Source: Bilabrum cf. latius (lineage: Eukaryota). Taken from it: a DNA stretch of 64,000 nucleotides. The stretch spans positions 930,001 through 994,000 of the forward strand of contig OZ237736.1 in the NCBI GenBank assembly GCA_965178125.1, read 5' to 3'. Made by a program: the position numbers and the translations under genes. The notes beneath the pieces are model-generated. The model saw only the letters and a list, made by a program, of their open reading frames with translations, searched no databases and had not been told where the DNA came from. Below are positions 3,101-51,419 of this stretch, piece after piece. Within the stretch, counting starts at the first letter, position 1. The number at the start of each line of letters is the position of its first letter.

Positions 3101-3470
3101 GGGCGGTAGCGAAGGATCAGAGACAGCTTCCACTGGTCCTGGAAAACAAGCTGAAATTAGCGCGAGGCTTATTGACAACAGTGCAAAGCTGTCCGCGCTA
3201 CAGGGCATGCTATCCGAAGCAAACACCGCCTAGTAGAGCCGCGCCTCGGGCGGAGCCCAGCGAGCCGCTGTGGATTCGGATGAAGATGACGACGAGGACG
3301 AGGACGAGGTCGAGGATAGTACGAGAGATCGAGAAGCTAGCTAGCGAATGCAGTAGCGATATGAAGATTTCGATGCATATAGCCCTCTGGTGCACACTGC
3401 TGCTGGAGAGGGCAGCAGCAGCAGCTCTGCTGGCGTAGGACCGTCTTCAAGACAGTATGAGGAGCTTTAA
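138..3470 (+). CDS. XPC: XPC/Rad4 DNA damage recognition protein (~1,110 aa, TAG read as Gln)
   Basis: Track ORFs 138, 660, 1005, 1641, 2466 and 2928 share one frame and are separated only by TAG (about 14). Rad4 motifs: WWVEV..WVFVDP, LTDVTRRYA, YALEGQL, VPKNDFGNVELW, RWEKLVHKALLRSRL. Ends ..QYEEL-TAA. Confidence 0.93.
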
Positions 3471-3555
3471 TGCATTTGTGGCAGAGTGGTTGACCATCGT
3501 GCTAGTTGGAATGGATGTTTGCCGTGTTCCACGCTGCCCAGTCAGAGACAGAGGT

Positions 3556-4902
3556 TTAGTTCCAAGTCGCATCGCAGACACATCTGGACCGCCGATGCAG
3601 CACGCAGCAAGGACAATTCGCCCCTCTGTAGTCTTCGCTCCTGCACCAAACGATGAGGGCATGCCTCTGACCCCTTGTGACGTCCTTGACCCTGTGCAGG
3701 TGCTGGCCCAGGTGAATCATGGCTATGCCAGGAATTGCAGGAACAGTGTCCTCCAGCTTGCCTTCATCTTCTGAGCTGCGGAGGCCCCTAAACTCCAATT
3801 CGCCGCCATCGAAATCAAGTCCCAAGCAGCAGTTGAGAGTCACCTCAGAGTCATCTGTGTGCGCGACAAGCCCCTTCCGGCTCCCTGCCTTGGCTCGCAG
3901 GGCCGCCTCAACCTCCACCTCCTCGCTGCTGCCTTCCCCCCCGCACCTGCCAGTGGTAGCACCGGCGCTGCTAGCTCCAGTACCTGCGGCATCCGGTCTT
4001 CCCGTTCCTTCAGCTGATTCCATGCCCATCTCCTAGCTGGTCGTCTGAGAAGATAAAGAGATGGCCCCAGAGGAGGCAACACCCGCTGTGACTGGGCCTA
4101 CCTCGCCGTCGCCCTCGCCCTCGCCCTCGCCCGCGCCCTCGCCCTCATCGCCCGCCCCAGAGGCAGGGCCGCCCGGCTCGGAGCAGCTTGAGCGCGTCTT
4201 GTCGCGGGTGTCGCGTCGTTCCTGGTGCTGATATGACGCGATGTACCCGTGGCGATACTCGAGGAACCCGCCCCCCACTCCAGGAAACAGGATGCCAGCC
4301 AGCGGGCGGACGACCATTCGCATGAGGGCGTCCTGGAACGGCTGCAAGCCCATCGAGTCCAGGACTGCACTGCCTTTGCCAAGGCCCTGCGCCGAGCGTT
4401 CCTTGTCAGACAAGCCAGCCTTCTGGGCGGCAGCGTCGGACCACTTGGAAAAGCTGGCCGACTCTTCGAGCAGTGCATTGCATACGTCTGCCGGAAACAG
4501 CCGAAAGCGGTACACGAAATCTACCGGCTCATCCAAGGCGCGGAGAACTGCCCCGGGATGCCTCTTGGCTAAAGCTTTGAGGATGGTTGGGTCAAACAGA
4601 CTGGCAGGATCGTCTGCAGCCCTGTGCAGTAGCGACCTTGCAACCGGTCTGTATAGGGCAAGCATAGACTTTCGCGCCCTCAAGTCCTCCATGGCCTTCT
4701 TGACACCATCCAATTCTTCTCGCAGAAGTCCGTCTAGTGCTTCGAGATCATGAGCAGTCCATTTTGCTAATGCGTGTGGATAGTGTCTTCTGGCGAAAAT
4801 CCCATGCAAAATCATTGCCAGGGACTTGGCCGGCTATCCCTTACGCCTCATTTCATTGATTTTTGTTTTGTCGATATCTTCAATCTTTGATGGTTCTGAC
4901 AT
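3556..4902 (-). CDS. 2-oxoglutarate/Fe(II)-dependent oxygenase (PLOD/ICU11-like)
   Basis: Motif HTDDSEVTLNCCLG..FDGGEL..HLGQHLH..RHALIVW (HxD..H..R). Single frame from ATG 4902 through 2 TAGs to TAA at 3556. Confidence 0.85.
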
Positions 4903-4994: not shown

Positions 4995-7900
4995 TCACTT
5001 TACGGGCGGCGGTCTCAAGCACCCAGCGTCGATCAAAGCGGCTTGCAGTCTGTCTGACTGTCTTTGCAGTACCCTAGCAAAGCCCTGGGTCGGCGGTTGC
5101 GGCAAAATGGCCCCGAGAGCCGCCACATCGTCGGCTGCACTGACAGGCTCTCGGCTAGACGGCCACGCGCCCTCCACCATAGCAGAGGCACCCAGCAGAC
5201 AAGCACCGGCAGCATCTCCCTTCGACTTCCCTTCGGAAGCAGTAGTATCTGCCGCCGCCTCGCTGCTGTTGACACCGGCCCCAGCTCCACCGCCGACGCT
5301 CGTTTCCCCAGTCAGTGCAAGCAGCCCCTGCAGCATGCCAAGAAGCCTGGCCCCGTGGACCGCATAGTGGGCCCTTACAAGAGCCTCCATTCCCCCTGGG
5401 GGTTTCTTGAGGGCACCAATCGCCTGCGTGACCGCTACCACCACCGAGTTCTCGTTGTAAAGCAGTGCCTGCCGCGCGTGCCCGGGCATGTCCTCGCAGC
5501 CCTCGAGCCCTGGCTCGCTGAAGTACGGCAGTCTGCTCCCGAGCAAGAGGCCCTACAGGCTGACTGCCACCTGCAGTATCGACGACTTGCCCGGCTACCA
5601 CCCCTCGCCCGTGGACCCCTCTCCCGTCTCCCAGGTACCAAGCAGACTGAGGCACACCTTGCCCGAGCCCTATTCGTACAGGTTCGGGTGGCCCCGCTCG
5701 CCGGAGAAAGACCGGAAGTGCACGAACGGCGGCCGAGACGGGAAATCGACGGGCGACATGAGCACGTCGAAGAAATGCAGCACGTGTGCACAGGGGCTGC
5801 ACGCCGGCCCCGCAATCGCAAGGCGAAGCAGAGCGATGTCCTCTGCGTAATGGCATGCGTACACGCCGGGAGGCAGCTCCGATCGCAGGATCTGCAGCTC
5901 CCGCTTGATCGCCCGAGCGAATCGCGGGTTGCTGCTCGCGGTCCGCATGCTGTGCGACCGCCATAAGGGGGGTCCTCCCGACTCCATCCCGCCTGCATGG
6001 AAATCGCCCGGTATCTTGTCAAGTGCGAGCAACTGGCTGTCGCGGAAGCCAGAACAGGCACGAATTTCACTTATAGCTGCCTGCATTGCCACGCCGTGCT
6101 TGTAAGTTGTAGTCGGCGAGGCAATCGAACTTGCCGCATCGCTCCCATTCGACACGTCTTCGGCGGGATCGGCCCCGGCCGAGGTCGAACCCGACGAGGC
6201 ACCATCTCGGATAGCCACCCCTAGATCAACGAGAGGATGCACACTGCTGCGCTCGCAGGGCTTGGCGTCTGGCCAGGCGTCCGATGCTGCCCCACTCGAG
6301 GCCTGTGGCTGAGGCGGCAGCAGATCCCCTGCCTGCTAGCTGCCTGCCTCGCCGCCGTCGGAACTCTCACTGCCACCTTTGGCAGACTCTCCCAGCAACT
6401 TCTCCAGGAGCGTGCGAAAAGATGCAAGTGAATCAGATGCACTATCCGCCAGATCACCGCCCTTGCCGTCTGGGGGCTATTTTGATCTTGAGGCTGCGAT
6501 GCCGGATCGCTGGCCGAGAGCAAACACTGCAGCAAGTCCATCCGCTGACAAGACACCAGTATGCAGCATTCGAGATGCCACTATCGCATGCTGTTTGTCA
6601 TCTTCTGAATCGACCTTCTTCAGATGTACGGGCAGGGTAGCCTCCAAAAGTCGGCTGGCGTGTCCCTCACAAGATTTTCCGGAGCCAGACGCGGGACTAG
6701 AGACTTCTCCAGCGCCAGTGATAGGTCCAGCATGTGATGAGAGAAGCTGTGGAGGACGAACCAGAGGCATGCGCATCCCAGCACCCGCCGCCGCTGAGGC
6801 TGACCCTCCCGGGAAAGACATCGCCTCACCCGTTCCTCCTCGCTGCATCCCCTAGAGTCTCACCATGCTGTCAGAGATCTGCGCGGCCTGCTCTCGGGAC
6901 AGCTGAGCCCCGGCCTGCTGCAGAGCGGCCTCGACTGCGGCACGGGCCCTGTCCGGGTCACTGCCATCGACATCGATCGTGATCAACTGCGCACTGGCTG
7001 CGCTGCCGGGCGGTGCCTCCTTGGGGTCGCTGACCGGAGCATCCCCCTGGTCACCGAGATTGTGCAGTTGGAACGGGTGCGTCTTCGAATAGGAGCCATC
7101 GGACCAGCACACGAGAAGCATGCCGTCCGCGCACGTGCGGCGAACTTCACCGAAAATGACGCGCTGAGTCGAGCCCCCTGCCGATGCATCGCCTTTTAGG
7201 CCGTCCGATCCTTCCCTACTGCTGCTGCTACTAGACGCTGGGCGCGCTTCGCCGTCCCCTGCCCCGCTGGAGGGGTCCGTTCCGTGGCCCGGGGGGTCGG
7301 GATCTATCTCTTTCCCACCAGCAGACCCACAGCTGCCCTCATCGCCACCCAGTCGAGCCACCACATCAGACACTCTGAAATTGAGCGTGCGACACAGCAC
7401 TAGATCGTACATGCTCTCTTCGGCATCTGCCCCCCCAGCTGTGGTCCGTTCCAATGGATCCATACCTCCGGCGAAAGAACCAATCTCTAGCTCTTTTTCA
7501 AAGGCAGCCATTTTTCCTCCAACTTCATCCTTGATGCGCTATTCTGGGGCATCTGCGGGTGCCGGCATCCAGTAGACCTGCACGGTGCGCTTGGCATCGT
7601 TGCAGCTCTGCACCACTCCTAGTCTTGATTTGCGAGCCCCACCATCCTCGGAGCTCTCCTCCCTGGGCTGCACGTAGTCTCCGGGCAGCAGCGTCTGGTC
7701 TCCCATCATGTACTCTGGCAGCAGCGCAAGGAGCACGGCGGGCACGGCTTTGGACATGGTCCCGTCTGACCACACCACGTCTACTTTCGACTTGACTTGG
7801 TGCACAAGCACAGCAGCCGACCGCCGATCGAAAGCGACGGGGAACTCAGGCAGGCCCGTGGTGCTGCCTGCCTCTCCAGAAGCATCGCTGTCGCTGCCGT

Positions 7901-9099
7901 CATCTTTCGCTCCAAGCTGGTCCGCTCCAGTGGGCGACGAGTTGCTGGCGCCGCTTGGCGCTGGCGGGCCACTGCCCGCAGCGGAGGCGCCTGCCCCAGC
8001 CCCAGCCCCAGCCCCAGCCCCCACGGAGGTACCTGCGTCCTTGCGTGCCTTGACCCGCTAGGCTGCTGCAACTCCAGAGGGTGTCAGCAGACCAGGAGCC
8101 CCGTACGTCCAGCATATTCCCCGCGGGTCGCGATAGGTCAGCCTATGCAGCTTGGGGTCATCGACAGGGATGACCGGAGGAGGCGGGCCAGCCTCTGTGG
8201 GCGCGAGACTCTGCTGCCAACTGACCATGATATTGGCGGCTCTGGTGCCAATGCAGACTCCTACCTTGTGCTTGTGCCTAGAGTAGGATCCTTTCATCCA
8301 CCTAGCAGAGCGGAGGACCTGCGCGGGGGCGCGGACGGGGCAACCCGCCGTAATGTCGTCGAAATCACCAGACTCGATCTGGAGCCGCTGCTCGTCCTGA
8401 GGCCGAATCGTGCAAACGCTGCCGTCGTCAAAGCCAATCGTGGTCTCTGCCTCCCATGAATCCACCTAGCCGACCCAGCTATCGTAGCATACGACCTGGG
8501 ATTGAATCCAGCCGTCTTGGCCCATGTCGGCGTGCTCGTGCGGCACCCAGGCCAGATCGGCATCCCGCCGGTGCACCGCTTCGAATTGAACCCCAAGAGA
8601 CTGGTGTATAGCAACCACCCTTCCAATTTGATTCAGGAGGGGGTCCTGCCCCTGTTGCTTCGCTACCTACACGTAGTCCCCAGGCATGAATCGCCTGTCT
8701 AGAACGGAGATGTTTTGCGCTTCAACGACAGAGAGCTGATCTGGGTCATCAAATCCGTACTCCTGCGGGGCAACATAACCACTCAGCTCGACGAGCCCCT
8801 ATCCGAGCGCTGGTAGATCGTCGTGGCTTGGTTCCGAGTGGCGGTGGTGTTCACTAAAGCGAGAAGTGTGCTGCGAGTGTGTGAGATGCATTCCTTGCGA
8901 GGAGCAGTACAGAGCCTTAAGGATTTCAAACTTCTACAAGACAACGGCCGTTTCTTCTCACACCCTGCATCCGAACGATAGTGTGGCAATCCAAGTCATC
9001 ATCTCTGCCACAGAGCACGGTGTCTCCGAGATACATGCCACAAACCGAATGGTCGCCCTCATCCAGTTTTCTTCGAGATTCGTGTATAATCTTCTCCAT
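4995..9099 (-). CDS. UBE2O: UBE2O/UBC23-like E2/E3 hybrid ubiquitin-conjugating enzyme
   Basis: N-terminal VLDRRFMPGDYV motif. C-terminal UBC domain HPNLYE*GSGKVCLSLLGTW..ILQVAVSL*GLLL..PYFSEPG with the catalytic Cys. One intron (8961-8871), about 11 in-frame TAGs, TGA stop. Confidence 0.88.
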
Positions 9100-9771
9100 G
9101 ACTCGAGATTGCACGGATTATCTTCCCATACAACGCACAATAGGCCGCAGTTGCCTTAAAATACAGAGATACAGAAATACATTGTTGGGTAAAGATTCCA
9201 TGAACACCCAGATGCACCGTTGCCCCCGAGGGGGTTTGGGTGATCACCTAGATCCAGAGGAGCCCTAAAAACAAAGGACTACAAGACCCCCGGCCCTTTC
9301 AGGCCAAAGGCCCCCCGTTCTCAGCCTATGCCGCCGAGTTCCCATTCTTCGCCATCAGTGTGGTCCCCCACAGGCCCCCAGCCTGTTGCCTTCACAAGGA
9401 GAAAGCATACAGGTGCGGAGCGTGTGCCCGGCACAAGGCGCGGTCCAGTCCCACATCGGGGTCCCCGGTCGAGACCCACCATTTCCTCCTCCATGACCGT
9501 CTCTGCGTCTCACGATCCTTCAGAGAGGCGAGCATGCACGCGCTCATGCCTTTGGCCCATTGCCTCTCTATATCCTTTAGCAAGCCGTGGGGCTTGAAAA
9601 TCCGTCGCTGTAGTCGGGCGTTCGCATTGGTTGCCGCTATCAGCTCCTGCGTGGCCGTGGCGGCTAAGGCAGCCGCCGCATCACCCTGCCTTTCCAATTT
9701 CGGAAGTGGCGTGCGCTTATTGGTCGGCCCAAAAACAAGAGTCTTGGCTGCCGTTGATGCGTTCACTGACC

Positions 9772-11517
9772 ATGGATTCAGCCGGTTGGGGAGAATGGAC
9801 ATTGGATCAAGAGAATGATATTAACTAGATGCTCTAGGTGTGTTTGCCCTAAGTTGTTTTGTCCTCTAGAAAGTCTCTAAATGTGATGCAAGCACTTGCT
9901 CCAACACGTACCTTCGGCAAGACCCCCCGCAGAAGCCTGCCGATGCTTTAGAAGTGCGATATAAGCAAGTTGGAGGAGGAAGCAAGGTGAGAACTCCAGG
10001 AAATACACCCGTTATGCCCCGAGCCTGTCTGGCTTGATGCGCGTGGATCGCTTGCGTTCAAATTCTCCCTTCGAACCTCTTGGCAGGCTGCGTATCTCCC
10101 GAACGATACTGTGATCGCAAACGCAAACAGAATTTTTGGTGGGGCGGGGTGGTCCTCTCGCATACTGGAATGCAGGGTCGAGTTTTGTGAGGCCTCAAAG
10201 TCGGGAGCCTTTAGCGTGGGGTGCTCCGCGCACATTCGGATAACTCTGAAGAACGGCGCCTTCCGTGAAGATATTGGGTTCTGCTCCAGCGAGAACTAGA
10301 GACAAAAATCAAAAGCCATCGAGGTCTCTCGAAAAGGGGCCGTCTCCGACGGAATCAAGCGTTGCCTGCGCCAATTCGGTGACGCGTTGGGCAACTGTCT
10401 GCGAGCCCCCGAGTTTATCAAAAGAACACGAGAAATGCAAAGGCGCAGCGTCGAGGAACGAGCGCGGCAACACGCGTCCTCCAATCAGCAGGCTGGCTCT
10501 TTCAGTGCCCATTCCTTGCCACAGGCACCCCCTGTTCCCGAGTACACAAGGCCAGGGCAAGGGCAGGGGCAGTCCGCCGTGCGGTTGTACTCTGGCGGAG
10601 CTGCCGCACCGCAGGCCCCTTCATCCGCTTCATCGTCATCCTCTGCCTCTGCAGTGGGGCAGGCGCCCCAGATACCCAGTGCAGGGACGCAGGCGGGCGG
10701 CGCCACAGGCCATCCAGTGGGCGGCCAAGCGCCTGGGCTTGCCGGCGGCAGCAGGCAAACGCCGGCCTCCTCATCTTCATCCGGGTCATCCGCCCGGGTG
10801 GCAGCAGCCAAGGCACGCACCCCCGATCCCCCAAGGGGGCGAGGTCCCCATGACGGGGGCATGCAGATAGTCGACATCGAGGCTGCGGCCGTCCTGGTCA
10901 TGTCTCAGGCAGCCAGGGAGGCCGAGGAGCAGTTCGCTGCAGGCCACGGGGCGGGTGCGGGGGCCGGTGCGGGGGCGGGGGACAGTCGGAGCGGCGAGGC
11001 GGCAGGTGGTCAAAGTGGCGGAGGGGACGACCCGGACGCACCGCTGCTCGACCTGTCGCTCCCCGAGGAGCTGGTTACTGACCCTGACGCCGACGTGCTG
11101 GACCAGATCCTCAAGCAAGCCGACTCGCCCGCGCACGGACCGGGACCGGGACAGGGGTAGGGGGCAGGTGTTGTGCCCGCGGGTCCAGCAGGGGCATCTG
11201 CTGCGCTGTCTCCTGCTGGCAGCCACGCTCAAAAGCAGCCACCCTCGTCTGCAGGAAGCGGTGCGGGGCTTCGTGAGGCGAGCTCTGCGACCACCAACGG
11301 AGCAGTTGCTTCGGACGCACCGGCCTCAGGCTCGTTGAACACGAAGAAACGGGAGGCGATGCGGCTGCGGAGGGAGGCTGCGCTGCGCAGGAAGCGCGAG
11401 AGGGAGGCTAGCGGAGCCCCCGGCGCGCAGCAGAAGCAGGGAGCTGGGGCCGCTGGTGGCGTGTCCCAGGCCTCCAGCACCGCATCGCGCAGCCCGAAAA
11501 GGGCCCGGCTTGCCTGA
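9772..11517 (+). CDS. RAD52: RAD52 DNA repair/annealing protein
   Basis: Motif ANANRIFGGAGWSS..HIRITLKNGAFREDIGF..KGAVSDGIKRCLRQFGDALGNCL. Exons 9772-9837, 9933-9986 and 10087-11517. 4 TAGs, TGA stop. Confidence 0.9.
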
Positions 11518-11724
11518 AATGGGAACTTTCTCGTCGGAATTAAGCGTATGGTAGGTCTGACAGTATCTATTTAGACGATGAGCGAGCCGTTTGGGGCGTC
11601 AAAAGCCTGCGCTGCTTGCGGCCGTAGACTTCCCGGTTCGGTGCCACAGTGTGACCAGTGAAGAGACGCAATCCGTTTTTTTAATTGGTGCACCCTCTCT
11701 TTGCGAACAGTTACATCAAGCACA

Positions 11725-14785: not shown

Positions 14786-14943
14786 TCACGTTTTTAAGTT
14801 TATTTGGCTCAAAATCTCTTGGCTTGGCCTTCCAGTGAAATTCTTAGCTCAAAGTCAATCAGTGTGCCGTGGTATGATGTGTATTTAGCCCAGATCATCG
14901 CAAGCGACTGCACGATTCAGCTGCATGCATCAATCGCAGTCCG

Positions 14944-29732: not shown

Positions 29733-29824
29733 GGTTTTGAGTGTCTGTCCAAGCGCAGACGTGAACAGTGTACAGCAACATGCAATTGACTGAATTACGC
29801 AAAACACTCCACCCTTATGGTGAG

Positions 29825-31180: not shown

Positions 31181-31322
31181 GGAAGAGCTACGCCACCCCA
31201 AAACCTCACCTATGCACGTGCCATATCGCCGTCGTTTGCTACCCGCCAATCGATACGCAAAAGCTATCCTGCTTGTCAGCAGGAAAGCAATGTGGATGGG
31301 ATAGTCTGTCTGTATGTCTGAA
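31181..31322. repeat. ~140-bp dispersed non-coding repeat, copy C (copy D at 33709-33849)
   Basis: GGAAGAGCTACG..CCCCAAAACCTCACCTATGCACGTGCC..GATAGTCTGTCTG is present twice with few mismatches. Confidence 0.93.
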
Positions 31323-33708: not shown

Positions 33709-33849
33709 GGAAGAGCTACGCTACCCCAAAACCTCACCTATGCACGTGCCATATCGCCGTCGTTGGTACCCGCCGATCGATACGCAAAAGCTATCCTGTT
33801 TCTCAGCAGGAAAGCAATGTGGATGGGATAGTCTGTCTGCATGTCTGAA
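33709..33849. repeat. ~140-bp dispersed repeat, copy D
   Basis: Matches 31181-31322 but carries only one TGTCTGAA unit. Confidence 0.93.
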
Positions 33850-36663: not shown

Positions 36664-39319
36664 TCAGCTGAGCTGGCCTCCTCCGTCTCCATCTGCTGCG
36701 TCGCTCTGTACGGCTCTTAGTGAGGAACCGGCCGCCGTTCGAGCAGCGACCTCGGTGCCCCGTACGAGGGGGGACGGGGGTTGCGGCGACAAAAATGAGA
36801 GCTTTGTTCCTCCCGCCCTCGACCTGCCAGTCGGCGGGCTTCCTTTGGCCCAAGCTGGAGTTGCTTTGCTGTAGCCAACTGGAGTGCCCTCGCGCTTCGG
36901 GTCGGCCCCGACAGAGCTGGACCTCGCGCCTTTCCCCATGGAGGCCAAGGTATCTACGGCGCTCTTTGGGGCCCTTGGTATTTCCCCTGCCGCCATTCGG
37001 GCGGCTGCGTCGGGCCCGTGGGCGAGCACGTCCTTCATCTGAACCACTACATCTACGAGGGCCAAGTGGAAGTAATGTACCTGCCAGAGCAACATATGAT
37101 TGATGCGTCGCAAGAAGAGGCGGTTAGGGCTAAATTGGACTATTCACATGCCTCACTCTTTCGGCGGGACGCCTCAGCTGCAAAGGTGATCAGGTGGGAT
37201 TCGAGCGTTTCCGTAGGCCCTGTTGCTACTAAGCTTGGGTCATTCTTGTAGACCGCGCGACAGAACCTGCGACCTTACTCAGAATAGAAGAGGGAAAGTA
37301 CTGCATCCATGTACCGACAACAAGTCGGTCAGTGGAATTCGCGTGCAAAGTAGGTACGACTCACGTATCGATGAGAGCATAATCTGCTCCATCGTGACCT
37401 TGCAGCGCAGTTGTGCTAGACACGGAGGGGGCTGTTCGCACCTCCGTCTGCCCAGTCTCGAAGCTAAACACCTTGACCTTCGACACCCCATCACCCTGGA
37501 TCTCGCCCATGGTACCGAAGATGCGCGTGCGCCGCTGGCACACAGCCTTGGTAAAGGCAACTGCAGTCAGTGTGGCAGTGGGACCGGCGGATGGCGGTCC
37601 CGGCTTGCTCCCAGCAGCGCCAGCGCCAGCACCAGCACCTGCCGATGCGCCGCCACTAGCCTCGGACACGTACGGCTCGAACTGCATGTTCACAGTCTGG
37701 TGGTCGCACACGTCATTCGAGCAGGCCCATACGCACCTGCCATAAGGGCCCGTCCGGAGGGCATCCTCAACGGCCGCCACCGTCTGCTAGCCGCTCTCCA
37801 GGATGGGCTGCACCGGCCAGCCAAAATACCCGCTCTTGGCTCGCTCGAGGTAGATCTCCTTGGCACTGAACGGACACTTTCTCTCGATGGCCTCGGGGCA
37901 GTCGAGGCACCGGTCGGCAGCGCCCGCTGGCCGACGCCCGGGGTGGAAGTTGAGCAGAGACCCGAAAGACTGCACTGACACGCACCGGCGGCCTGCGGAA
38001 GGAGTTGGATGCAATTAAGATGCAATCGGCGAAGGGGGTAAGAAAACTATAAAAGAAGCAAAGCTAAGCCCGAAGTCAGCTGCAGCCAAGCGGCCGCCTC
38101 TCTCACCAACCATGTGTCGGATCAGATCGACGTCGTGGCAGCACTTGGCCAGCAGCATGAAGCTCGAGGACGCCTCGCTGCTCCACTGCCCCCGCACATA
38201 GCTGTGTGCAAAGTGCCAGTGCCCGATGGGCTCCAGGTGCTGCACGTTCACCACGTCACCGATGGTCCCGTCATCGATGAGACCCTTGATCATCGTCATG
38301 TAGGGCGTGTAGCGGAGCACGTGCCCGCACGCGAAGATCTTGCCGCTCTTCTGCACGGCCCTGCATATCCTAAGGCAGTCCCTGGGATTAGTCGCCATCG
38401 GTTTCTCAAGCAGCATGTGGTAGCCCTGCCTTGCGAATGCAAGCGCAGGCCCGATGTGCTCCGCATCCTGGGTCGCGATGATGACTGCCTCGGCCAAGCG
38501 GTCCTCGGGGAGAAAGTGCCCTCCGGCGCCTTCCTCTGAGTGAGCACCCGTGCTCGCTCTTGACGGTCCGTGCGGGCCTCCAGCGGACGTTCCTGAGTGC
38601 GGCGCGGCGCTAGAGGCGCCCAAGGAGCCTCCAAAGGGACCCGCGCGGCCAGAAGCTCCCGGCATGGTTGGGCTGCCGCGGCCATCCCCGCCACTTGCTG
38701 CAGCAGCGGAGGCTCGAACGCCATGGCCGCCGTCCGGAGAATCACCTGACATGGGAACGGACGCGGGAGAAGCCGCGGAGTCATCATCCAGCACACTTTT
38801 GACCACACTCTTTGCTAGTGGACTGGATGGCATCAACCCTCCCGGTGTTTCGCTGTCCATAACCGATGGCATACTTCGATGCTTTACATTGTGAGCGCGC
38901 TTATGCCGCCGCTCCTCTACGACAGCCACCGCTTCTCGCCAATCTTTGTAGACAGCTGATCCATGAACTGAATGGCGTCGAGCCTGCGAGAAATATTGGC
39001 TGTTCCAATGTCAATGGTGTGCGCCAAGCCAGCTTACAAGATATGCTTCGCTCCGTTCATCTCACCATCATCTCCCGGTGAAAGTCTCGGGGCTCTGCAA
39101 TTGCAACAACATTCATCCTGTCCGGGTGCTCTAGGGCATAGCGGGCGTATATTTTCCCTGCAGTTGACGTGGGAAAAGCGAAAGCTGGGATTTCGGGATA
39201 GCGCTCTGGGCAAACCGAAAAAGCCCCTTCACTAGGAAGATGCACTACTCACCACGCTATCCGCACCCAACAACTAAGACAGTCACTGGGCCACGCCGAG
39301 ACTCGCGCATGCTTTCCAT
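36664..39319 (-). CDS. Gfo/Idh/MocA family NAD(P)-dependent oxidoreductase
   Basis: Rossmann motif VLVVGCG*RG, plus LLEKPM, GHVLRY, HFAHSYVRG, LAKCCHDVD and CDHQTV. Introns 39252-39158, 39065-38984, 38106-37993, 37364-37267 and 37156-37053. 2 TAGs, TGA stop. Confidence 0.88.
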
Positions 39320-39433: not shown

Positions 39434-42424
39434 ATGGCAGGGCGAAGCATGCCAAAGGAATCATCCTTAGCTAAAGTTCACGATGCTAGACTCACTCTAG
39501 GCAGACGGCAGGACGAGTGGGCCGCAGTACGGCAACGCGAAGTTGCACGAGCAGAAGCCGAATAGGCGCGCAGATCTGGGAGCAGACTTGCAGCGAAGAA
39601 TACCCAATCTCGCAAAGCCGACAAAGAAGGGGGTGTATCGGAAGAGGTAGAGAACAAGAGGGCGAGTCCTCGCAAGTCTGGCAGCCCTTCGCGCCGACGA
39701 AGCAAGTCCCGTTCCCAGGTGAACGGACATCGAAGTCAGCACCACAAAGTGGCAGAGTCAGGCGGCCAGCGGGGCGGATCTACCCACAAGATGTCTCACC
39801 TACTATTGAATAATTCCAGGTTGAGCGGTGAAAATGCTGACCTCGCTGCAGAGCTGCATCGGGCCAAGGCGGAGATCCGAGCCCTTCGGTAGGAAGCGGC
39901 GCTCTTCAGCAAGGAGAAAGACTCGCTGGCAGTGCTGTAGCAGCGTTTCGCAACAGTTTTAAGCGAAACTGCGGAAATGTTTTCTGCCGTCGTACATCTC
40001 GGTGGCATCGCACCTGTAGATGAACCGACTGAAGGAGCACAGACAGCTGCGGCAGGAACGGACAGGCGTGGCAGGGACCGGCAGACAACCGCGATCAAGG
40101 CACAGGCACACGACCTTGCAGTCGCCCAGACCGGAGTTCGCGCTCTAGCCCCCTTCCTGCAGGGAGCTGCTGCTGCTGCAGGCACTGTGGGCAGGGACCC
40201 GACTGGCATCGCCTCCACGGCTGCCTTCACCATGCAGGTAGAGCCCATGCGGGCGTCTGCTGGGGCGGCGGGCGGGCGAGTGACTGCTTCTCTCTCTCGC
40301 TTTGGAGGGGCTCCAGTGGGCGCAAGCGGGTTCTCGCAGACGGTGAGCTCTGGGGCGCTGACTGCCTCTCGGGGGACTAGAGGGAATAGAGGGCCAGCGG
40401 CGGCATCGGGTGTGGGTGCATGGGTCGACGAGTGCCTGGAGCAGCAGCGCACCGCCGCATTCGAGGCGAGTCAGGGCAACAAGGAGATGAATCAGCGAGA
40501 AAAGGTGGCCAAAGAGGCAGCAGACAAGATCGCCGCGGAAAAGGCCAAGGGCAAAGCCGCGCTGGATAGACTCGTTGCGGGCAAGCCCGTGAAGTCCGAT
40601 GTGGCAACGGACGGAAGCGGTGCAAGCACCGGGCGAGCGGGTAGGGGCAGGATTTCCCATGCGGCGAGGAAACAGGCAGCTAAAGTAAGCTCGGGCGTCC
40701 TAGTGGCTCGCATCTTTGACGCATTTGACCTGGATCGGGACCAGGTGCTGGACGCCGTCGAGTTCACCCGGCTGCAGGCTGCCCTGGGCAATACGGCCCG
40801 CCCGTACACGCAGCACTCCCTTCGGCAGCTGTGCATGAAGCTTGAGGTGAAGTGGGCCTCGCCTAACGACAACCCCAGCGAGGTTGGCATGAGCGTCTTT
40901 GACGGCAAGGGAAACCTCAGGCCAGCAGAGGCGCAGGAAGTGGAGCTGGGGCTACGGCCGGGTGGGGCCATGGCGGGGCTGGCCGGAGGAGCTGAGGAAT
41001 CGTACGTGAGAGGAGGCTTGATCGGCCCACCGGGTGGGATCTCCCTGGCTGGGCTGGGCAGGCTGTACTCGATCGTCGGGCGGCCAGCGCTGGAGCGCGA
41101 CGCTGCCAAGCTGGGACTCGTCGGTGGGGACGGGCACGGCGGGGCCGGTCTGCTCGAGACCCTGGGCGCAGGGCTCGTAGGAATCCGACAGCTTCTTGCC
41201 ATTGCTAAGGGCTGGGCTGCTCGCGCCTCGCGGGACTCGGGGAGCAAGATCGAGGGGAGACGGACGCTGCGGCGCATGTCACGACGTCTGCAGCAAGCTC
41301 AGGACGAGCAGTCGGCCGCATCCGGCGAGATCGAATACTTGCGGCGCCGTGTGGTCTAGCTGGAAGCGGAAGCTTCTCGGTGGCGGGAAGTGGCCGGCCG
41401 TCGGGCAGCCGAGTCCCACGCGATCGGGCTTCAGATGCAGGCAGTCGCAGCCGGGATGCCCCTCCATGAGGCACGCAAGGCTGCTCAAGCAAGACTGGCG
41501 TTCCTGCCCCCGCCTGCTCCGGTGCTTGACGACCATCTTCGGCGACAGAGACAGGGTCTCACGAACACCAAGCCTGGCGTCGTGACTGCTTCGTCTCCCG
41601 CATCGCCAGGGGCTTACAGCCCTCTCCGCAGGGCACAAGGGACGAGCGTAGCGGTGCTGGAGGGCCGTGATCTGGTCGCGAATCATCTGCGAGAGGTGCG
41701 CAGGGTGGGCAAACCGAAGAAGGCAGGTATCGCACAGGGCGCAAACCGCCGGCGAGAGGGGTCAGTGCATCAGCCGTCGTCACCGAGGCGCATGGATCCA
41801 ACGGACGACAGGGTATCCGACGTGGAGGCAGAGCAAGACGAGCATAGGGGTGATAGTAGCGAAGTAGCCGACGCCGAGCCCGATGCAGCCGAAGACCGGC
41901 CACTGCCAGCATTCTATGAGACCCTGTACTCTTCGTCTGGCCCATCTTCCGGTGATGAGGCGACGCAAATGTCATCACGACTCGCGCAGGCTGCCTCCAT
42001 GGCTGCGTCGTCTGGCGTCGACACGAGCAACGATTCAGGCCTAATGGGTGGAATGGGAGGTGCGGGCGACGAATCATCGTGGATGATGGCATCGGGTCGG
42101 CCGTACGGCCTCCAGTTCCAGGAGAGAGCGAGGTCGCATCACGGTCCGCCGGGCAGCCCCATGCGACCGGCAAGGCACGAGTAGGCGACGGGCGGGTATG
42201 ATGGCATCGCTGCAGACAGAGAGGAAGACGACACGAGGGGTCTACAGCTAGGGCAGCTGTCAGACACAGATTCTGATGCTGGGGACGGGTACGCTGCGGA
42301 CGCGAGCGGTGCAGGGACGACGCTGAGGAAGCCAATCCAAGCAGGTTAGGTGTTCTCATCTAGCCCCGAGTTCTCGCCTAGGCGAATGACCTCGTCCAGA
42401 ATGCCGGTGGAGGCCTTCATGTAA
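39434..42424 (+). CDS. Coiled-coil protein with an EF-hand motif (~996 aa)
   Basis: One frame with 6 TAGs ending in TAA at 42422. EF-hand-like FDAFDLDRDQVLDAVEF. Confidence 0.7.
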
Positions 42425-42537: not shown

Positions 42538-45500
42538 TCAGCGCCTGCGCGGGCCCTTGCGCCTCTTCTCTGCCCGCTTCAGACCGCGCATGTCGCTCTT
42601 CATGCGCTTGTCCACTACCTTAACCTTGGCGCCGCGAGCCACACCAGCCCGGTCGTTGCTCGTCCCGCCCCTGCTGGCCACTACATACACCGCCTGTGGC
42701 CGCTTGATCTTGCCACCGGCCTTGGCGTACAGGCGCTGGACCGCCTTCATCTTGGCGGTGTCAGTGAGTTCCTCCGACTGCATGATGCCGTCGGCAGCCT
42801 TCCGTGCCTTGGAATAGGCCTGCACCTGCTTGTGGCGCTTCCTGGCGCGAGCCTCGGCCACCTTGTGGATGGGTCGCGCCGATATCTCCCTGAACTTGCG
42901 CTTGATCTCGTCTACGTCCTCTCGTGTGATGGGCAGCTGAGGCCTGAAGTGCTTGCGCTCATCGTCCACAAACCACGCAGGCAGATCATTCGGGTCCTCG
43001 TGGGTCGAATACCGGTTGTACGAGGCGTCCACCAGGTCCTTGGCAGCCGTGTGCTTCCTCATCTTCTTAGCGAGCGCCAAAATGGTTGCATGCGTGTCGC
43101 TGTCGTAGTCCTCGTCGAACCTAGGGTCGCTCTCCTTCGCCCCGTCGTTGGCCCCGACCTCCTCCTCGCTCTCGTCCTCATCCGAGTCGCTATCATCAGA
43201 CTCGTCGCTGCCGTCCTCGCTGCTACTGCCCGAGTCATCATGAGTCCACTTCTTGCCACTGCTAGCAGCCTCGCCACTGCTGGAGCTCCCGAACCCCTTC
43301 TTGATGAGCTTCTTCCTCGCGTCGTCCTTCTCGTTCTCGCTTGGTACCACATCCGAGATGGGCTCCTCCGAGGTAGCAGCGGCGGATGATGAAGCCCTCC
43401 TAGCCGACTCTGCGGCAGGAGCATCGTAGAAGTCGTCGCCAAGCTCCGTATCCACTCCATCCGCTACTGGTACCGGCCCGCTCTTCTCCTGCGGCCTGCC
43501 GTTTGACATCGATGCTGCAGCTACCTCAATCTCTCTGTCAAGCTTCTTCTTCTGTTTCTCCACCTTTCTCTCGGATCGCTCCCTGTTCCGCCGCAGCCTC
43601 TGCTTCCTCTTCTCTCGGTCGCTCAGAGGCAGGCCAGCCAAAGGATCCTCGGCATCTGAATCGCTCGAATCCTCTCGCTCGAGCCTCCGCTTCTTCTTTG
43701 CTTTGCTGGACGCCTCAAAGTCCACCACCTTGCCGTCGCGGGACGTCGGCTGCGGTTGCGAAATGGAGGAGCGACCGCGCTTCCTGCCAGCCGTGGCTGC
43801 CTTCCTGCCGCGCTTCGGCGCACCCTCTGACTCATCGCTGGCATGACCCGCACCTTCTTCGTCCTCATCCACGTCATCGTCAAGCATGGCACCGGTGCTG
43901 ATCGACGCCAGCAGCGGCCGGCTGGCGAACCACCGGTTTGCCTGCCCCTCGGTCGCCTTGCCGATGTCGTCCTCCTCATCATCATCATCGTCCCCACCAA
44001 GGCGGAGCGGCCCGGTCGAGCCTAGAGCGTCCATGCGCTTCTACCTAGATCCTCCGGATGCAGGCTTGGCCTCATACTCATCGTCCTCCTCGTCGTCACT
44101 GGAGTCCTCGCTGTCGCTGCCGCCAGTGTGCACGGGTCCAGAGGTGCCCTCGAAGCCCTCCTCGCCCTTGACATCGTGCTTCGACGTCTTCGGCTTGCCC
44201 GCCCGCTGCAGTAGCTCCAAGTAGCGCTGATGCTCGGCATCCAAAGCGACTAGCTTCTTCGCCTCGGCTACCCTCGCCTGCATCTGCAGCCTCTCCTTCC
44301 TCTTGAGGCGCGCACCCGTCGTGGGATCAACGCCCGCGAGGATGGCGGCCTCCCTCGCCTCCTTGCCCTTGTTTGCCCTCACCAGCTTCTCTGAATATGT
44401 CTGGTCCAGATCCCGGGCAAGCTTACGAGTGTACGCGTCCTCGCCGCCCTCCTCATCGTCCTCGTCGTCCTCAGACGAATCGCCCGCGATCCTGCCAGAC
44501 AGGCCCACGTTCTGGGCCGACAGCTTGAGCGCGAGCTTGCCGCCAGGAATGGCCTTGCCCCCGAGCCCGGCGTAGGCCTCGTACTCATCCTCGCTGTCCA
44601 TTCCCTCTGCCCGCATGGCCCCGCTGGCCTGTCGCAGCGCAGCTTCTGCCTTCTTCATGTGCTCGGGCAGCTTGCCGTCTGCACCCGCGCCCCTGCCCGC
44701 CAAGATGTCATCGTCATCGTCCTCATCGTTATTGCCTTGTCCCTCGGCATCGTTCGATCCTTTCTTGCTGGCATTCTTCCTGGCATCCTCCTTGGCCTTC
44801 CTCTCCTCCTGCACCATCTCCCTCAGCTTGATCACAGACAGAACGCCCTCGTCCTCCTGCCAGTCGATGCTCGTGGAATCTACCTTGGCGTTCAGCGCGC
44901 GGCGTCGCATCGCCCGAAGGCGCGTCTTCTCTAGCTGTCTCTTCTTCTTCTTCATCTCTGCCTTCGCCTCCTTGGCCAGCCCGAGGGCCAGCTCGTCACC
45001 CTCGTCCTCATCCGAATCGCCGTCCTCCTCCTCCCCACTGCCCCCCAACTTGTCCTCGCCGTCGATGGCACTCGAACCATCGCTATCTTCGTCGCTGTCT
45101 TCCTCGCTCCCGCTGGCTTCGTCATCTCCGCGGAATCGCCCCATGGCGGCGTCCCACCCAGACTGCTTCCTGGCTGCCTCCCGCCAGCGGAGCAGAGTCC
45201 GGAACTCGCGAGGGCCAAGCACCCTAAGATCTCTGCAGCACGCGCGCACCTCCTCCGTCGTGCACGGCAGGGAAGCCACCTGCTTCCCGAGGCCCTGCTC
45301 CTTCTTCATCTTTGACTCTAGCGCGGCCTTGTTCTGCTCGGCGCGGTCCTTCTCTGCTGCGCTGGCACCTGCGCGCGCTCGGGTGGCTGCAAGCTCTGAC
45401 CCATACCTGGGAGCAGCGCCGAAGGTGAGCTCGGTGGCCCCTGCCAGCAGCTCAACCGGGTCCACGTTTCGCTCGAATAGGAAGTCCGACACAGCCACGG

Positions 45501-48797: not shown

Positions 48798-51419
48798 ATG
48801 CTTGTCTGCACGTTAATAGCCATATTTAGTGCTAAACTTTCATGCGCATCGCCAAGGATCAGCTCAATTGCCCGAAGTCTGCAGGACAGCCCAAAATCTC
48901 TTCAGGACTTGCGGCATCTCCTTTCCGACTCGGCCATTCTAGAGCCAGTCTCGGCGTTGGGCTCGCTACTTGGACTACGTTCTATTGTTGAAGCGCAAGC
49001 CAAGATGAGTAGGGCGTGGTTTACGCTCGAGAATGGCGGATACATCGGTGCCATTCTTGATGCTCTCCCGAGCAACTTGGGACAGGTCGGAATAGGTGCG
49101 TCCAGCGTGGATTTATTACAACTGGTGTCCCTATCTGGCAAAGCAGCAGATGTTGCCTCGAGTCTTCAGCACGGAGAGCTCGCAGCCTCGCTGCAAAGCG
49201 TTGGCTTGCTGTCGCGACTTGCAGCTGCCCGACAGCCACAGGATAACCAACCTTCTGATGCCGTGGCGGTTGCTCATGCAGCAGTAGCCCAAAACTTTCT
49301 TCGGGCTCGAATGTTTAGAGCTGCATCCCTACATGCCGAAGCAGCTGCTCTGGTTGGTGATGCGAGCCGATTCAGGCAACTAGTTGCATCACAAACTCAA
49401 CTATCTGGGGACACTCGCAAGGCCCTAGGCGTCGTCCCACCCCAGGTGTTGCCCTTTGTTGGGAACGAGGCATCAGTGGAGGCATTTATAAATTGGTTGA
49501 GGCGGCGCAATCCACCGTCAGATGCCACCTCAGTCGTGATCACCAAGCTGCAGGCAGAGCTGCAGGAGTGCGCGGGAGGAGGCGAGCACCGAGCACTTGC
49601 TCATCTCATGCAGCAAGCCGCCGCACGTCGCGCCGGCACGGCGCTACTAGATCCCAGGCAGGCCCTCGGCATCACACCGGAACAGCTCACCGGGCCGGGT
49701 CGTCCTATGCTGGGGCCGAGCGGTGTAGCTGTCATGCCAGCTCCGACCGTGCGGGAGCGGCGGACAGACATCGTACAGGCGATAACCTTAACCCGGAGGC
49801 TGATCGCATAGCAAGTTCGTTCACTGCGGGGCGACATGGATTGGCTAGAAAGCAGCGCTGCCAAGAGCAAGACGACGAGGGAGTCGGACAGGAAGCACCG
49901 ATCTCGAGCTGAGCAGACAGCATCCATGATCGTGTCCATGCAGTCGAGATACTGCGCCCTGCAGCAAGCCATCGCGACGCTGGGGCCGTACAGAAAGGTT
50001 TGCCAGCCGTTAAATGCTCACGTGACTAGTGCAGTCACAGAGCTGGCCCCACCTGAAGCTGTCGCTGAGCTGAATCGCATCTCGGGCAGGTGGCCAGCCA
50101 CTCCGTTGCAGTTGCCAAGCGCTATGTTGAACCTGCGCGAGAGACATGCCCGCTACAGAAACACGCTCTCCAGTGGGCAAGCCACCCTTGTGCCCCGCAG
50201 GCCGGCAGTTTCTTGGTACTCTGATGCCCTCCTTCGAGCGCTGCAGTGGGACCACGTCGTTGCAGCGAGGGATGAATTGGCACTGCACGCTGACGCGCTG
50301 CGGGCCGAATACCACGGACTAGCCAGCGCAGATGCCCGGAGTGCAGCTGCAGGCAGGTCCCTGTGGGATCGCCCTCTTCTGATCGATGAGACCGAATGCA
50401 TCCACCAGTTCACCGCCCGTGACTCCCCCGGATTAGAGACTGGAAATAGTTCACACGGAGCGGTGGAACTAGGCCGCTGGAGGCGATACAGCACGAATGC
50501 GCCTTGGAGACCTCTGAACGAAACCACAGGCTGCTCTACTGAAACGCCGAAAGCGTGTGGTGCCATCGACAGCGTGCTGAAGGCCGCGTGGAGCGCGCTT
50601 GGAAACAGGGGGCGAGCCGTGTTTCCTGGTGGCTTGCGCGTGCTGCGCGCGGGGTACTCGTCGATCCAGGAGGGTGCCTGGCTCAGACCTCACTTTGGCA
50701 CCACCAACGGGCAGCTCAAGATGCACCTGGGCCTGTTTGTGCCGAGTAAGCTCGCGGATGGCGGCCGGCAAGCTGATGCATCGGTTACTTCTTCACCACT
50801 AACGGAAGGATGCGCAGTATTTAGAGTAGGCCAGTCGCCGCTAGATCGGGGCATGGGGCCCACCAGTGCAACCAAGGCAAACGATCAAGGCGTTTCGTCT
50901 CGACCCCCTTGGGGAGAGCCTTCCTGCGGTGCTGCTGGATAGCCCATCTCCAACGATCGTGGGTCTGGTCTCATGCCCCGCGGGGAGTGCTGGGACCATG
51001 CCGGGGGCCATCGAAGATGGAGAAGGGACCAGGTGCTGATGTTTGACGACTCAGTGGAGCACGAGGTGAGGTTTGACGCTGGGTGCCAAGTGTTGGCTTC
51101 GCACAACCACACGGGTACAGCACTCCGGGACGGCGCTAGTGACTCGGTGCCGAGCACGCTGTTGCCGCATGAGACCGGTAAGGAGCGAGTCGTGTTCCAG
51201 CTCGTGTTCGAGCACCCCCTTCTTGGAGTGGTACTGGATAAAACCCATGGTGACAAGCAACAGGGTAAGCAACGCCCACAACCCGCCAGTCAACTGTTTT
51301 CAACGCTTGGCGAGCTGTGGTCTGAAGACCCCGATGCGGAGGAGCGTGTCGTTCCTACCGAGGGCAGAGGGCTGTCACCTGCATCTAGAGAATTCAAAGC
51401 CGCTGTTGCCCCACACTAA
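48798..51419 (+). CDS. Aspartyl/asparaginyl beta-hydroxylase (AspH)-domain protein
   Basis: LRPHFGTTNGQLKMHLGL lies before, and FDDSVEHEV..RVVFQLVFEHP after, the TAG at 50940. Signal-like N-terminus, 2 TAGs, TAA stop. Confidence 0.82.

What the first reader, a model, noticed from the sequence alone, without database searches (positions are those of the whole stretch)
3468..3558. UAA remains a stop: rare decoupling of UAG from UAA
Seen: no reconstructed CDS contains an internal TAA. TAA terminates XPC (3468), the convergent 2OG oxygenase (3558-3556), the EF-hand gene (42422) and AspH (51417). The other complete genes end in TGA and none ends in TAG. Established: most nuclear reassignments (ciliates, diplomonads, ulvophytes) change UAA and UAG together. 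UAG-only changes are known from few lineages, such as Iotanema spirale (Gln), a rhizarian (Leu) and some phyllopharyngean ciliates. Inference: this organism needs an eRF1 that reads UAA and UGA but not UAG, plus a CUA-only suppressor tRNA.
Basis: partly seen in the sequence, partly recalled or inferred. Interest (0 to 1): 0.88.

Follow-up and report, generated by a model that had tools for sequence, protein, structure and literature searches.

The report
UAA stays stop, only UAG recoded
In this piece of a protist genome the codon UAG is read as glutamine while UAA and UGA still end genes, a rare split of two normally linked codons, seen here in what looks like a lineage where it has not been reported.

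Summary
TAA ends the four named reading frames at 3468, 3556-3558 (minus strand), 42422 and 51417. No in-frame TAA or TGA occurs in 15,013 codons of 14 long frames, which hold 95 in-frame TAG.

Evidence that does not depend on how I drew the frames:
- All 6 homologues of the OGFOD2-like protein end at the same conserved C-terminal column, immediately followed here by TAA 3556-3558.
- TAA is absent from 5,163 codons bracketed by Pfam matches and from 5,665 codons covered by transcript-like contigs. About 7 and 12 would be expected if TAA followed the CAA:CAG ratio.
- TAG is glutamine. One TAG sits in a column that is Q in 124 of 146 homologues. In a syntenic relative, TAG pairs with CAG, CAA or TAG in 8 of 12 well-aligned comparisons.
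- That relative, a 7.5-kb metagenome contig, also needs TAG as sense and has no in-frame TAA.

The eRF1 and tRNA inference could not be tested, because no genome is held and no tRNA lies in the window. The closest named relative is the stramenopile Cafeteria. I rate it a new member of a known kind of code.

The parts
3468..3470 (+). TAA ending the Rad4/XPC gene (ATG at 138)
   Evidence: Frame end. Rad4, BHD_1, BHD_2 and BHD_3 Pfam matches (BHD_2 at 26.3 bits is below its 33.5-bit cut-off). The 37 codons after the last TAG score as coding (0.16), while the 61-codon extension past the TAA scores -0.25, below the 5th percentile of coding windows.
3556..3558 (-). TAA ending the OGFOD2-like 2OG oxygenase gene (CDS 4902..3559)
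   Evidence: All 6 homologues end at the same conserved column (...CPCC.L.RR..C.C..WN), immediately followed here by this TAA. The 128-codon extension past it scores -0.30.
42422..42424 (+). TAA ending a 1013-codon frame with no Pfam family
   Evidence: Frame end. A colinear transcript-like contig runs 39436-42448 and ends 24 nt past the TAA. This is a weak hint only, because it ends in a run of nine G.
51417..51419 (+). TAA ending the Asp/Asn beta-hydroxylase gene; TGA follows at 51438-51440
   Evidence: It is not discriminating, because a TGA lies six codons further on.
42538..42540 (-). TGA ending Spb1/FTSJ3, a validated stop
   Evidence: The alignment runs to residue 846 of 847 of human FTSJ3.
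11515..11517 (+). TGA ending Rad52, a validated stop
   Evidence: The orthologue in L001 ends at the same position, also with TGA.
5553..5555 (-). In-frame TAG in the UBC domain of UBE2O (residue 1135)
   Evidence: This column is Q in 124 of 146 homologues and Q in human and one further UBE2O structure sequence.
8466..8468 (-). In-frame TAG in UBE2O (residue 164)
   Evidence: Q in four relatives' proteins (P0133, P0283, P0146, P0286). The codon is CAA in L001.
10297..10299 (+). In-frame TAG in the Rad52 domain (residue 103)
   Evidence: L001 also has TAG at the same position; 9 of 10 flanking residues are identical.
37993..38106 (-). Putative 114-nt intron of a GFO/IDH/MocA gene; it holds the only in-frame TAA (38015-38017) flanked by same-frame coding-like sequence
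   Evidence: It has a GTGAGA donor and a CCGCAG acceptor like three introns seen spliced in contigs. Its GC is 0.52, against 0.61 and 0.69 in the flanks. The three PDB alignments shown end at the donor. Not verified by RNA.

Best explanation
This is nuclear DNA of an intron-poor, GC-rich protist that uses a variant genetic code. UAG is a glutamine codon, about 14% of Gln codons here. UAA and UGA remain the only stop codons, with UGA used about three times as often as UAA.

Shown here: UAG is sense and equals Gln; UAA is absent from coding interiors; UAA sits at one true C-terminus and UGA at two.

Inferred from established knowledge (PMC5304391 passages): UAG is read by a tRNA-Gln with anticodon CUA, which cannot pair with UAA. 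No tRNA with anticodon UUA exists, since that would read both codons by wobble. The single release factor eRF1 has lost or weakened recognition of G at the third stop-codon position while keeping UAA and UGA.
For: 1. Treating TAG as sense turns a window whose longest standard-code frame is 683 codons into one with 9 frames of 1000 or more codons, up to 2721. Treating TAA as sense instead gains nothing.
2. 13 of these frames carry Pfam families.
3. There are 0 TAA, 0 TGA and 95 TAG in 15,013 in-frame codons. In a wider set of 18,030 codons there are 120 TAG, with CAA:CAG = 229:506, so about 54 TAA would be expected if TAA were Gln too.
4. Spans bracketed independently of stop codons give the same answer. 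5,163 Pfam-bracketed codons hold TAA 0, TAG 28 (6.7 expected, P of none 0.0012). 5,665 contig-covered codons hold TAA 0, TAG 32 (12.5 expected, P of none 4e-6).
5. The OGFOD2-like TAA immediately follows a C-terminus conserved in 6 of 6 homologues.
6. Sequence past the TAA of XPC and of OGFOD2-like scores as non-coding. GC falls after TAA stops as it does after TGA stops.
7. TAG is Gln: a column that is Q in 124 of 146 homologues; Q in relatives at two further TAG positions; and pairing with CAG, CAA or TAG in 8 of 12 well-aligned orthologue comparisons.
8. TAG persists in spliced, gene-sized contigs of three runs, with no base differences reported.
9. The syntenic relative L001 shows the same code. 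Its frames of 645, 579 and 555 codons hold 18 TAG and no TAA in 1,779 codons. About 10 TAA would be expected from its CAA:CAG ratio of 23:42 (my arithmetic). Two of its genes end in TGA.
Against: - The sample is only 64 kb plus 7.5 kb. With none seen in 15,013 codons, a sense use of UAA below about 2 per 10,000 codons cannot be excluded.
- One in-frame TAA (38015-38017) is explained by an intron that no RNA data here verify. The downstream exon has no detectable homologue to fix the junction. One weak PDB match (4h3v, not displayed) spans that stretch.
- For XPC, the 1013-codon frame and AspH, the stop role rests on the frame end plus codon scores. AspH has a TGA six codons later.
- Contig ends are unreliable. 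The contigs stop 21 to 40 nt short of the TGA stops of Spb1 (validated by homology) and the LRR gene. The contig past TAA 42422 ends in a G9 run.
- The kind of the three runs is only guessed, and the tool marks X6 'probably DNA'.
- Occasional use of UAG as a stop is not excluded.
- There is no tRNA or eRF1 evidence at all.
Confidence: 0.85

Rival explanations
1. Both UAA and UAG encode glutamine (the common UAR-to-Gln code, with UGA the only stop), and UAA is merely rare because the genome is GC-rich.
For: The window is 58% GC and TAA is the rarest of the three triplets (456 against 1094 TAG and 1709 TGA). AspH has a TGA six codons after its TAA. One in-frame TAA lies between two coding-like segments.
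Against: A-ending codons are not rare: CAA:CAG is 229:506 and GAA:GAG is 341:697. So 7 to 54 TAA were expected and none was seen. A TAA immediately follows a C-terminus conserved in 6 of 6 homologues. Reading through the XPC and OGFOD2-like TAA would give 61 and 128 codons antisense to the neighbouring gene, with non-coding scores. The relative L001 also lacks in-frame TAA.
Confidence: 0.04
2. UAG is ambiguous: mostly glutamine, but also a stop near transcript ends, as in Condylostoma-type context-dependent codes. UAA and UGA are dedicated stops.
For: 3' untranslated regions look very short and genes are tightly packed, with 85 to 179 bp between the five convergent stop pairs measured. Several frames have a TAG within 3 to 37 codons of the terminal TAA or TGA, so a terminal TAG would go unseen in frames drawn with TAG as sense.
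Against: In the three genes with conserved C-termini the stop is TGA, TGA and TAA, not TAG. The tails after the last TAG of XPC and of the 1013-codon frame score as coding (0.16 and 0.13). With TAG at 0.67% of codons, one gene in 18 with a TAG in its last three codons is within chance (my arithmetic).
Confidence: 0.08
3. The in-frame TAG are not translated at all: they are removed by splicing or editing, or the genes are pseudogenes or assembly errors, so no code change exists and the TAA observation is trivial.
For: None found. The possibility arises only because the kind of the sequencing runs is guessed.
Against: Gene-sized contigs in three runs skip three GT..AG introns yet keep the TAG, with no base differences listed; 32 TAG lie inside contig-covered codons. 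TAG sit in conserved domains at Q columns. Relatives share TAG positions. 120 TAG against 0 TAA and 0 TGA in frame is not a pattern of decay.
Confidence: 0.02

Closest known systems
Iotanema spirale (fornicate) nuclear code: UAG to Gln, UAA kept as stop (PMC5304391; passages read)
   Same: The same reassignment and the same retained stops. The same predicted mechanism: tRNA-Gln(CUA) derived from tRNA-Gln(CUG), and an eRF1 weakened for UAG.
   Different: It is an unrelated lineage (metamonad), known from transcriptomes. There UAA is described as the dominant stop, whereas here UGA dominates (14 of 18 gene models). The eRF1 T32G change reported there could not be looked for here.
UAG-to-Gln codes in ciliates: two phyllopharyngean lineages and Protocruzia tuzeti (PMC11687900; passages read)
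   Same: UAG alone is reassigned to glutamine and UAA is retained as a stop. The change arose independently several times.
   Different: Ciliates are alveolates with their own macronuclear genome organisation (from recall). This window is GC-rich, carries spliceosomal introns of 91-95 nt, and groups with Cafeteria in one gene tree.
UAR-to-Gln codes (many ciliates, ulvophyte green algae, Hexamita, Streblomastix, Amoeboaphelidium protococcarum; PMC11687900 and PMC5304391 passages)
   Same: A stop-to-glutamine change of UAG, probably by a C-to-T change in the anticodon gene of a tRNA-Gln copy.
   Different: Those codes read UAA as Gln too. Here UAA was tested and is not used in frame and ends a gene at a conserved C-terminus.
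Other UAG-only reassignments: rhizarian exLh (Leu) and Scotinosphaera (Ser) (PMC5304391, PMC11687900 passages)
   Same: UAG is decoupled from UAA, and UAA remains a stop.
   Different: A different amino acid. Here Gln is supported. Leu was seen in only 16 of 146 homologues at the best column, and Ser in none.
Context-dependent stop/sense codes (Condylostoma, Blastocrithidia; PMC4967479, search listing and abstract only)
   Same: Stop codons used as sense codons, and short 3' untranslated regions.
   Different: There every stop codon is ambiguous. Here UAA and UGA never occur in frame, and no UAG was found at a verifiable C-terminus.

Membership tests
UAG-to-Gln nuclear code with UAA and UGA as stops (Iotanema / Protocruzia / phyllopharyngean type; from recall, the assignment of NCBI table 15) | In-frame UAG in conserved genes, aligned with glutamine in homologues | tested here: met
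   Q in 124 of 146 homologues at UBE2O residue 1135. Q in relatives at residues 97 and 164. Pairing with CAG, CAA or TAG in 8 of 12 well-aligned orthologue comparisons; 23 other comparisons were dropped as unaligned or poorly aligned. Two Spb1 columns were variable and uninformative (Q in 4 and 16 of 120).
UAG-to-Gln nuclear code with UAA and UGA as stops | UAA absent from coding interiors | tested here: met
   0 in 15,013 codons, 0 in 5,163 Pfam-bracketed codons and 0 in 5,665 contig-covered codons, and 0 in 1,779 codons of relative L001. This is window scale only. One TAA lies in a putative intron.
UAG-to-Gln nuclear code with UAA and UGA as stops | UAA found at true C-termini | tested here: met
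   Shown by homology for 1 gene (OGFOD2-like, 6 of 6 homologues). Supported by codon scores for XPC and weakly for the 1013-codon frame. AspH is not informative.
UAG-to-Gln nuclear code with UAA and UGA as stops | UGA is a stop, not a sense codon | tested here: met
   0 in-frame TGA. TGA sits at the conserved C-termini of Spb1 and Rad52.
UAG-to-Gln nuclear code with UAA and UGA as stops | UAG never terminates | tested here: inconclusive
   Only three C-termini could be fixed by homology, and none is at a TAG. The frames were drawn with TAG as sense, so the rest is circular.
UAG-to-Gln nuclear code with UAA and UGA as stops | A tRNA-Gln with anticodon CUA and no tRNA with anticodon UUA | not testable with these tools
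   No tRNA in the window or in L001 (ARAGORN; Rfam). No whole genome is held.
UAG-to-Gln nuclear code with UAA and UGA as stops | eRF1 N-domain changes (GTS, NIKS, YxCxxxF region) that weaken UAG recognition | not testable with these tools
   eRF1 is not in the window, and there is no genome to search.
UAR-to-Gln code (ciliate/ulvophyte/aphelid type) | UAA used in frame as glutamine alongside UAG | tested here: not met
   No in-frame TAA where 7 to 54 were expected. A TAA immediately follows a conserved C-terminus.

The most novel reading that the evidence does not exclude
A whole clade of Cafeteria-like (bicosoecid-related) stramenopiles reads UAG as glutamine while keeping UAA and UGA as stops. 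The clade would include the window's organism, its 89-99% identical relatives seen as protein fragments cut at the same TAG positions, and a metagenomic relative only 43-58% identical in three syntenic genes.

That would be the first nuclear stop-codon reassignment reported in stramenopiles. It would also be old enough to span deep divergence. Because a genome assembly and transcript-like data exist, the predicted tRNA-Gln(CUA) and the eRF1 changes that separate UAG from UAA could be read off and tested directly.
Probability: 0.45. Interest if true: 0.75.

Novelty: new member of a known kind. Interest (0 to 1): 0.62.

Why it matters
UAA and UAG almost always change meaning together, so each lineage that splits them is a natural experiment on two questions. 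How can eRF1 be made to ignore G but not A at the third stop position? How does a CUA-anticodon tRNA take over one codon only?

The known cases are few and mostly rest on transcriptomes or single cells. Here there is assembled genomic DNA, transcript-like data, and at least one divergent relative with the same code. The order of events (tRNA first or eRF1 first) and the age of the change therefore become testable.

It also matters in practice. Standard gene callers cut this organism's proteins at every TAG. Fragments ending exactly at TAG positions are already in public protein collections.

Tried and rejected
- Whole-genome tabulation, eRF1 and a tRNA inventory: impossible, because no genome is held.
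- Earlier notes of this scan: nothing found in four look-ups.
- The look-up of sequencing runs: no RNA holder listed. Three runs guessed as RNA were laid. Parts without cover, and contig ends, were not used as evidence beyond a weak hint.
- XPC homologue search: only 6 distant hits (27-31% identity), so I did not attempt to align the tails and the XPC C-terminus could not be fixed by homology.
- Spb1 TAG columns: too variable to name the amino acid. The Rad52 and XPC structure alignments gave mixed residues (E, L, K) at variable positions.
- A 591-bp duplication within the window (97.8% identical): TAG is conserved in both copies, so it is uninformative.
- GFO/IDH/MocA intron: the downstream exon alone has no Pfam or PDB match, and the codon score does not separate intron from exons. 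The intron therefore rests on splice-site likeness, a GC dip, and the three displayed alignments ending at the donor.
- Aphelid origin (Amoeboaphelidium, published as UAR to Gln): considered because small-share holders were labelled algae and protist metagenomes. Rejected because in a Spb1 tree the window groups with Cafeteria, one transcriptome sequence and 8 unnamed sequences (SH-aLRT 97), apart from fungi (31 of 120 hits, chosen by me).
- Frame 62849-63535 (-) ending in TAA: no family and an odd composition, so probably not a gene. It was left out of the stop tally.
- Slips. One search used out-of-frame coordinates for OGFOD2-like, so its TAG positions there are void; the right ones are residues 23 and 290 of 448. 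One search trained on one mis-framed interval, so its scores were redone.
- Literature: four searches of the held library found no paper linking stramenopiles or bicosoecids with a nuclear UAG reassignment. Supplements are closed and subscription journals are not held, so a report may exist unseen.
- The transcriptome prefix of the best OGFOD2-like hit could not be traced to an organism.

Full report
**What the window is.** The 64-kb window is 57-63% GC and holds no tRNA or other Rfam family. Under the standard code its longest frame is 683 codons. With TAG read as sense and TAA and TGA as stops, 9 frames reach 1000 or more codons, the longest 2721. Reading TAA as sense instead changes nothing.

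Thirteen of the long frames carry eukaryotic Pfam families:
- Rad4/XPC
- OGFOD2-like 2OG oxygenase
- UBE2O
- Rad52
- a TPR protein
- NUDIX
- a giant RING protein
- DUF5054/trefoil
- Spb1/FTSJ3
- an EF-hand potassium channel
- Asp/Asn beta-hydroxylase
- a polycystin channel
- an LRR protein

No whole genome is held for this window.

**The observation.** Of my 18 gene models, 4 end in TAA and 14 in TGA.

In 14 long frames (15,013 codons) there are 0 in-frame TAA, 0 TGA and 95 TAG. In a wider greedy set (18,030 codons) there are 120 TAG, 229 CAA and 506 CAG. TAG is therefore about 14% of glutamine codons. About 54 TAA would be expected if TAA shared TAG's meaning and the CAA:CAG ratio.

- 'None ends in TAG' is circular.
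- The 'EF-hand' label for the frame ending at 42422 has no Pfam support.
- The AspH TAA is followed by TGA six codons later, so it cannot discriminate.

**Tests that do not depend on how the frames were drawn.**

1. Homology-bracketed spans. Between the first and last Pfam match of each gene (5,163 codons) there are 0 TAA, 0 TGA and 28 TAG. 6.7 TAA were expected, giving a Poisson probability of none of 0.0012.

2. Transcript-like contigs. I laid four public runs on 39001-59000. One (X1) covers it in a single flat piece, like DNA. Three others give gene-sized colinear contigs that skip three GT..AG introns of 91-95 nt (39157-39251, 46326-46416, 58474-58567) while keeping the TAG. No base differences are listed. 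Their kind is only guessed, and the tool marks X6 'probably DNA'. Codons covered by the X6 contigs (5,665) hold 0 TAA and 32 TAG, with 12.5 TAA expected and a probability of none of 4e-6.

3. A conserved C-terminus. The OGFOD2-like protein (4902..3559, minus strand) has six homologues in a 5.8-billion-protein search. All six end at the same column of a conserved cysteine-rich tail. In the window that column is immediately followed by TAA 3556-3558.

4. Codon scores. Past the TAA of XPC and of OGFOD2-like, the same frame would run 61 and 128 codons antisense through the convergent neighbour. Those stretches score -0.25 and -0.30, below the 5th percentile (-0.05) of 388 coding windows. The 37 codons between the last TAG and the TAA of XPC score 0.16, near the coding median of 0.15. 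GC falls from a mean of 0.61 to 0.49 after stops, and it falls after TAA stops too.

5. Validated TGA stops. TGA is a true stop for Spb1, whose alignment runs to residue 846 of 847 of human FTSJ3. It is also a true stop for Rad52, whose end matches the orthologue's.

**What TAG means.** An exhaustive profile search with UBE2O returned 150 listed hits. In the 146 that cover the UBC segment, the column of the TAG at residue 1135 is Q in 124, L in 16 and H in 3.

The same search returned three short proteins, 89-99% identical to the window. They end exactly one residue before the window's TAG at residues 300, 473 and 702. This is what a standard-code gene caller would produce in a close relative that shares those TAG. 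The same proteins read Q where the window has TAG at residues 97 and 164.

Variable columns in Spb1, Rad52 and XPC were uninformative.

**A relative with the same code.** One scan of metagenome contigs found L001. It is 7,459 nt, GC 0.54, and carries UBE2O, Rad52 and the TPR gene in the window's order. These are 43%, 58% and 57% identical in protein.

- L001 also needs TAG as sense: its frames of 645, 579 and 555 codons hold 6, 8 and 4 TAG, against a standard-code maximum of 277.
- It has no in-frame TAA in 1,779 codons. About 10 would be expected from its CAA:CAG ratio of 23:42 (my arithmetic).
- Its Rad52 and TPR genes end in TGA.
- Codon by codon, 12 of 35 TAG comparisons lie in well-aligned context (at least 5 of 10 flanking residues identical). 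In 8 of these 12, TAG faces CAG, CAA or TAG. The remaining four face CCT, GAG, AAA and GAC.
- The other 23 comparisons were dropped: 9 unaligned, and 14 in poorly aligned stretches, of which 3 were CAA or CAG.

**The one awkward TAA.** In a GFO/IDH/MocA oxidoreductase gene on the minus strand, TAA 38015-38017 lies in frame between two segments that both looked coding in a first, approximate score. The rescore of 38-codon stretches put the flanking exons and the intron alike near zero.

The surrounding 114 nt (38106..37993) start with GTGAGA and end with CCGCAG, like the three introns seen spliced. Their GC is 0.52, against 0.61 and 0.69 in the flanks. The length is a multiple of three, which explains the shared frame. 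The three structure-sequence alignments shown stop at the proposed donor.

I could not verify the splice. My single read-laying run did not cover this place, the downstream exon has no detectable homologue, and one weak match that I did not see in detail spans the stretch. I put the intron reading at about 85%.

**Mechanism.** Shown: UAG is sense and equals Gln. UAA and UGA do not occur in frame here, and each ends at least one gene at a conserved C-terminus.

Inferred, following PMC5304391 (passages read):
- A tRNA must read UAG but ignore UAA, which leaves CUA as the only possible anticodon. It most simply arises by one change in a copy of tRNA-Gln(CUG).
- A UUA anticodon would read both codons by wobble, so it must be absent.
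- eRF1, which normally reads all three stops, must have weakened recognition of UAG. Iotanema carries T32G in the GTS motif.

None of this could be examined here.

**Who it is.**
- Of 5,564 Spb1 hits, the best named one is Cafeteria roenbergensis, 73% identical over the methyltransferase domain.
- I built a quick maximum-likelihood tree of the window plus 31 of the 120 listed hits, chosen by me. The window falls in an 11-row group (SH-aLRT 97) with Cafeteria, one transcriptome sequence and 8 sequences without an organism name, apart from fungi and an ichthyosporean.
- This is one gene, with no other stramenopiles sampled, so it is a lead and not a placement.
- It argues against an aphelid origin, which I had considered because Amoeboaphelidium is published as UAR to Gln.
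- Those Spb1 relatives are full length under the standard code, so the code change seems confined to a subgroup.

**Known or new.**
- UAG-only reassignment with UAA kept as a stop is known from a rhizarian (Leu), Iotanema (Gln), Scotinosphaera (Ser), Protocruzia tuzeti (Gln) and several phyllopharyngean ciliates (PMC5304391 and PMC11687900, passages read).
- The kind of code is therefore known. From recall, it is the assignment of NCBI table 15.
- Four full-text searches found no paper linking stramenopiles or bicosoecids with a nuclear UAG reassignment. Supplements and subscription journals were out of reach.
- I rate it a new member of a known kind.

**Verdict.** The finding is real and correctly read at the scale of 64 kb plus a 7.5-kb relative. 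Confidence is 0.85 that UAG is Gln and that UAA and UGA are the stops. What stays open is very rare sense use of UAA, occasional stop use of UAG, the intron at 38 kb, and the whole tRNA and eRF1 side.

Noticed in passing
L001:1-7459 (metagenome contig) against window 4995-13506: A syntenic relative carries UBE2O, Rad52 and a TPR gene in the same order, at 43-58% protein identity, and also needs TAG as sense. The code change is therefore shared across a fairly deep divergence.
   Followed up: yes
window 29825-30415 and 33924-34514; also 31181-31322 and 33709-33849: A 591-bp segment is duplicated at 97.8% identity. It forms the 3' ends, and 87 nt past the TGA, of two otherwise different ORFan genes. 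A second 142-bp repeat at 95% identity lies nearby.
   Followed up: partly
window 39157-39251, 46326-46416, 58474-58567 (all minus strand): Three short introns (95, 91 and 94 nt) are skipped in contigs of two or three runs. All have a GT donor and a (C/T)GCAG acceptor. The third joins frames 58433-62332 and 56434-58533 into one LRR gene of about 2000 codons.
   Followed up: partly
window 3470-3556, 14785-14944, 29732-29912, 42424-42538, 56325-56434: Convergent gene pairs have only 85 to 179 bp between their stop codons. Contig ends suggest 3' untranslated regions of a few tens of bases. This is a very compact genome.
   Followed up: partly
proteins P0133, P0134, P0192 (and cluster members P0283-P0285): Public protein collections already hold fragments 89-99% identical to this UBE2O, cut exactly at TAG positions by standard-code gene calling. 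Proteins of this lineage are likely fragmented in public protein collections.
   Followed up: partly
window 42440-42448: A run of nine G lies in the 113-bp spacer between two convergent genes. A transcript-like contig ends exactly at its last base, so that end may be an assembly break and not a poly(A) site.
   Followed up: no
window 51420-51460 and 56381-56400: T/G-rich motifs (TTGTTGTGTTG, TTGTTGTTTGTGG) lie downstream of two stops. From recall, they resemble the TGTTTGTT signal near Blastocystis 3' ends.
   Followed up: no
window 14944-23109 (-): A single uninterrupted 2721-codon frame whose only recognisable domain is a C-terminal RING finger. It holds 14 in-frame TAG.
   Followed up: no
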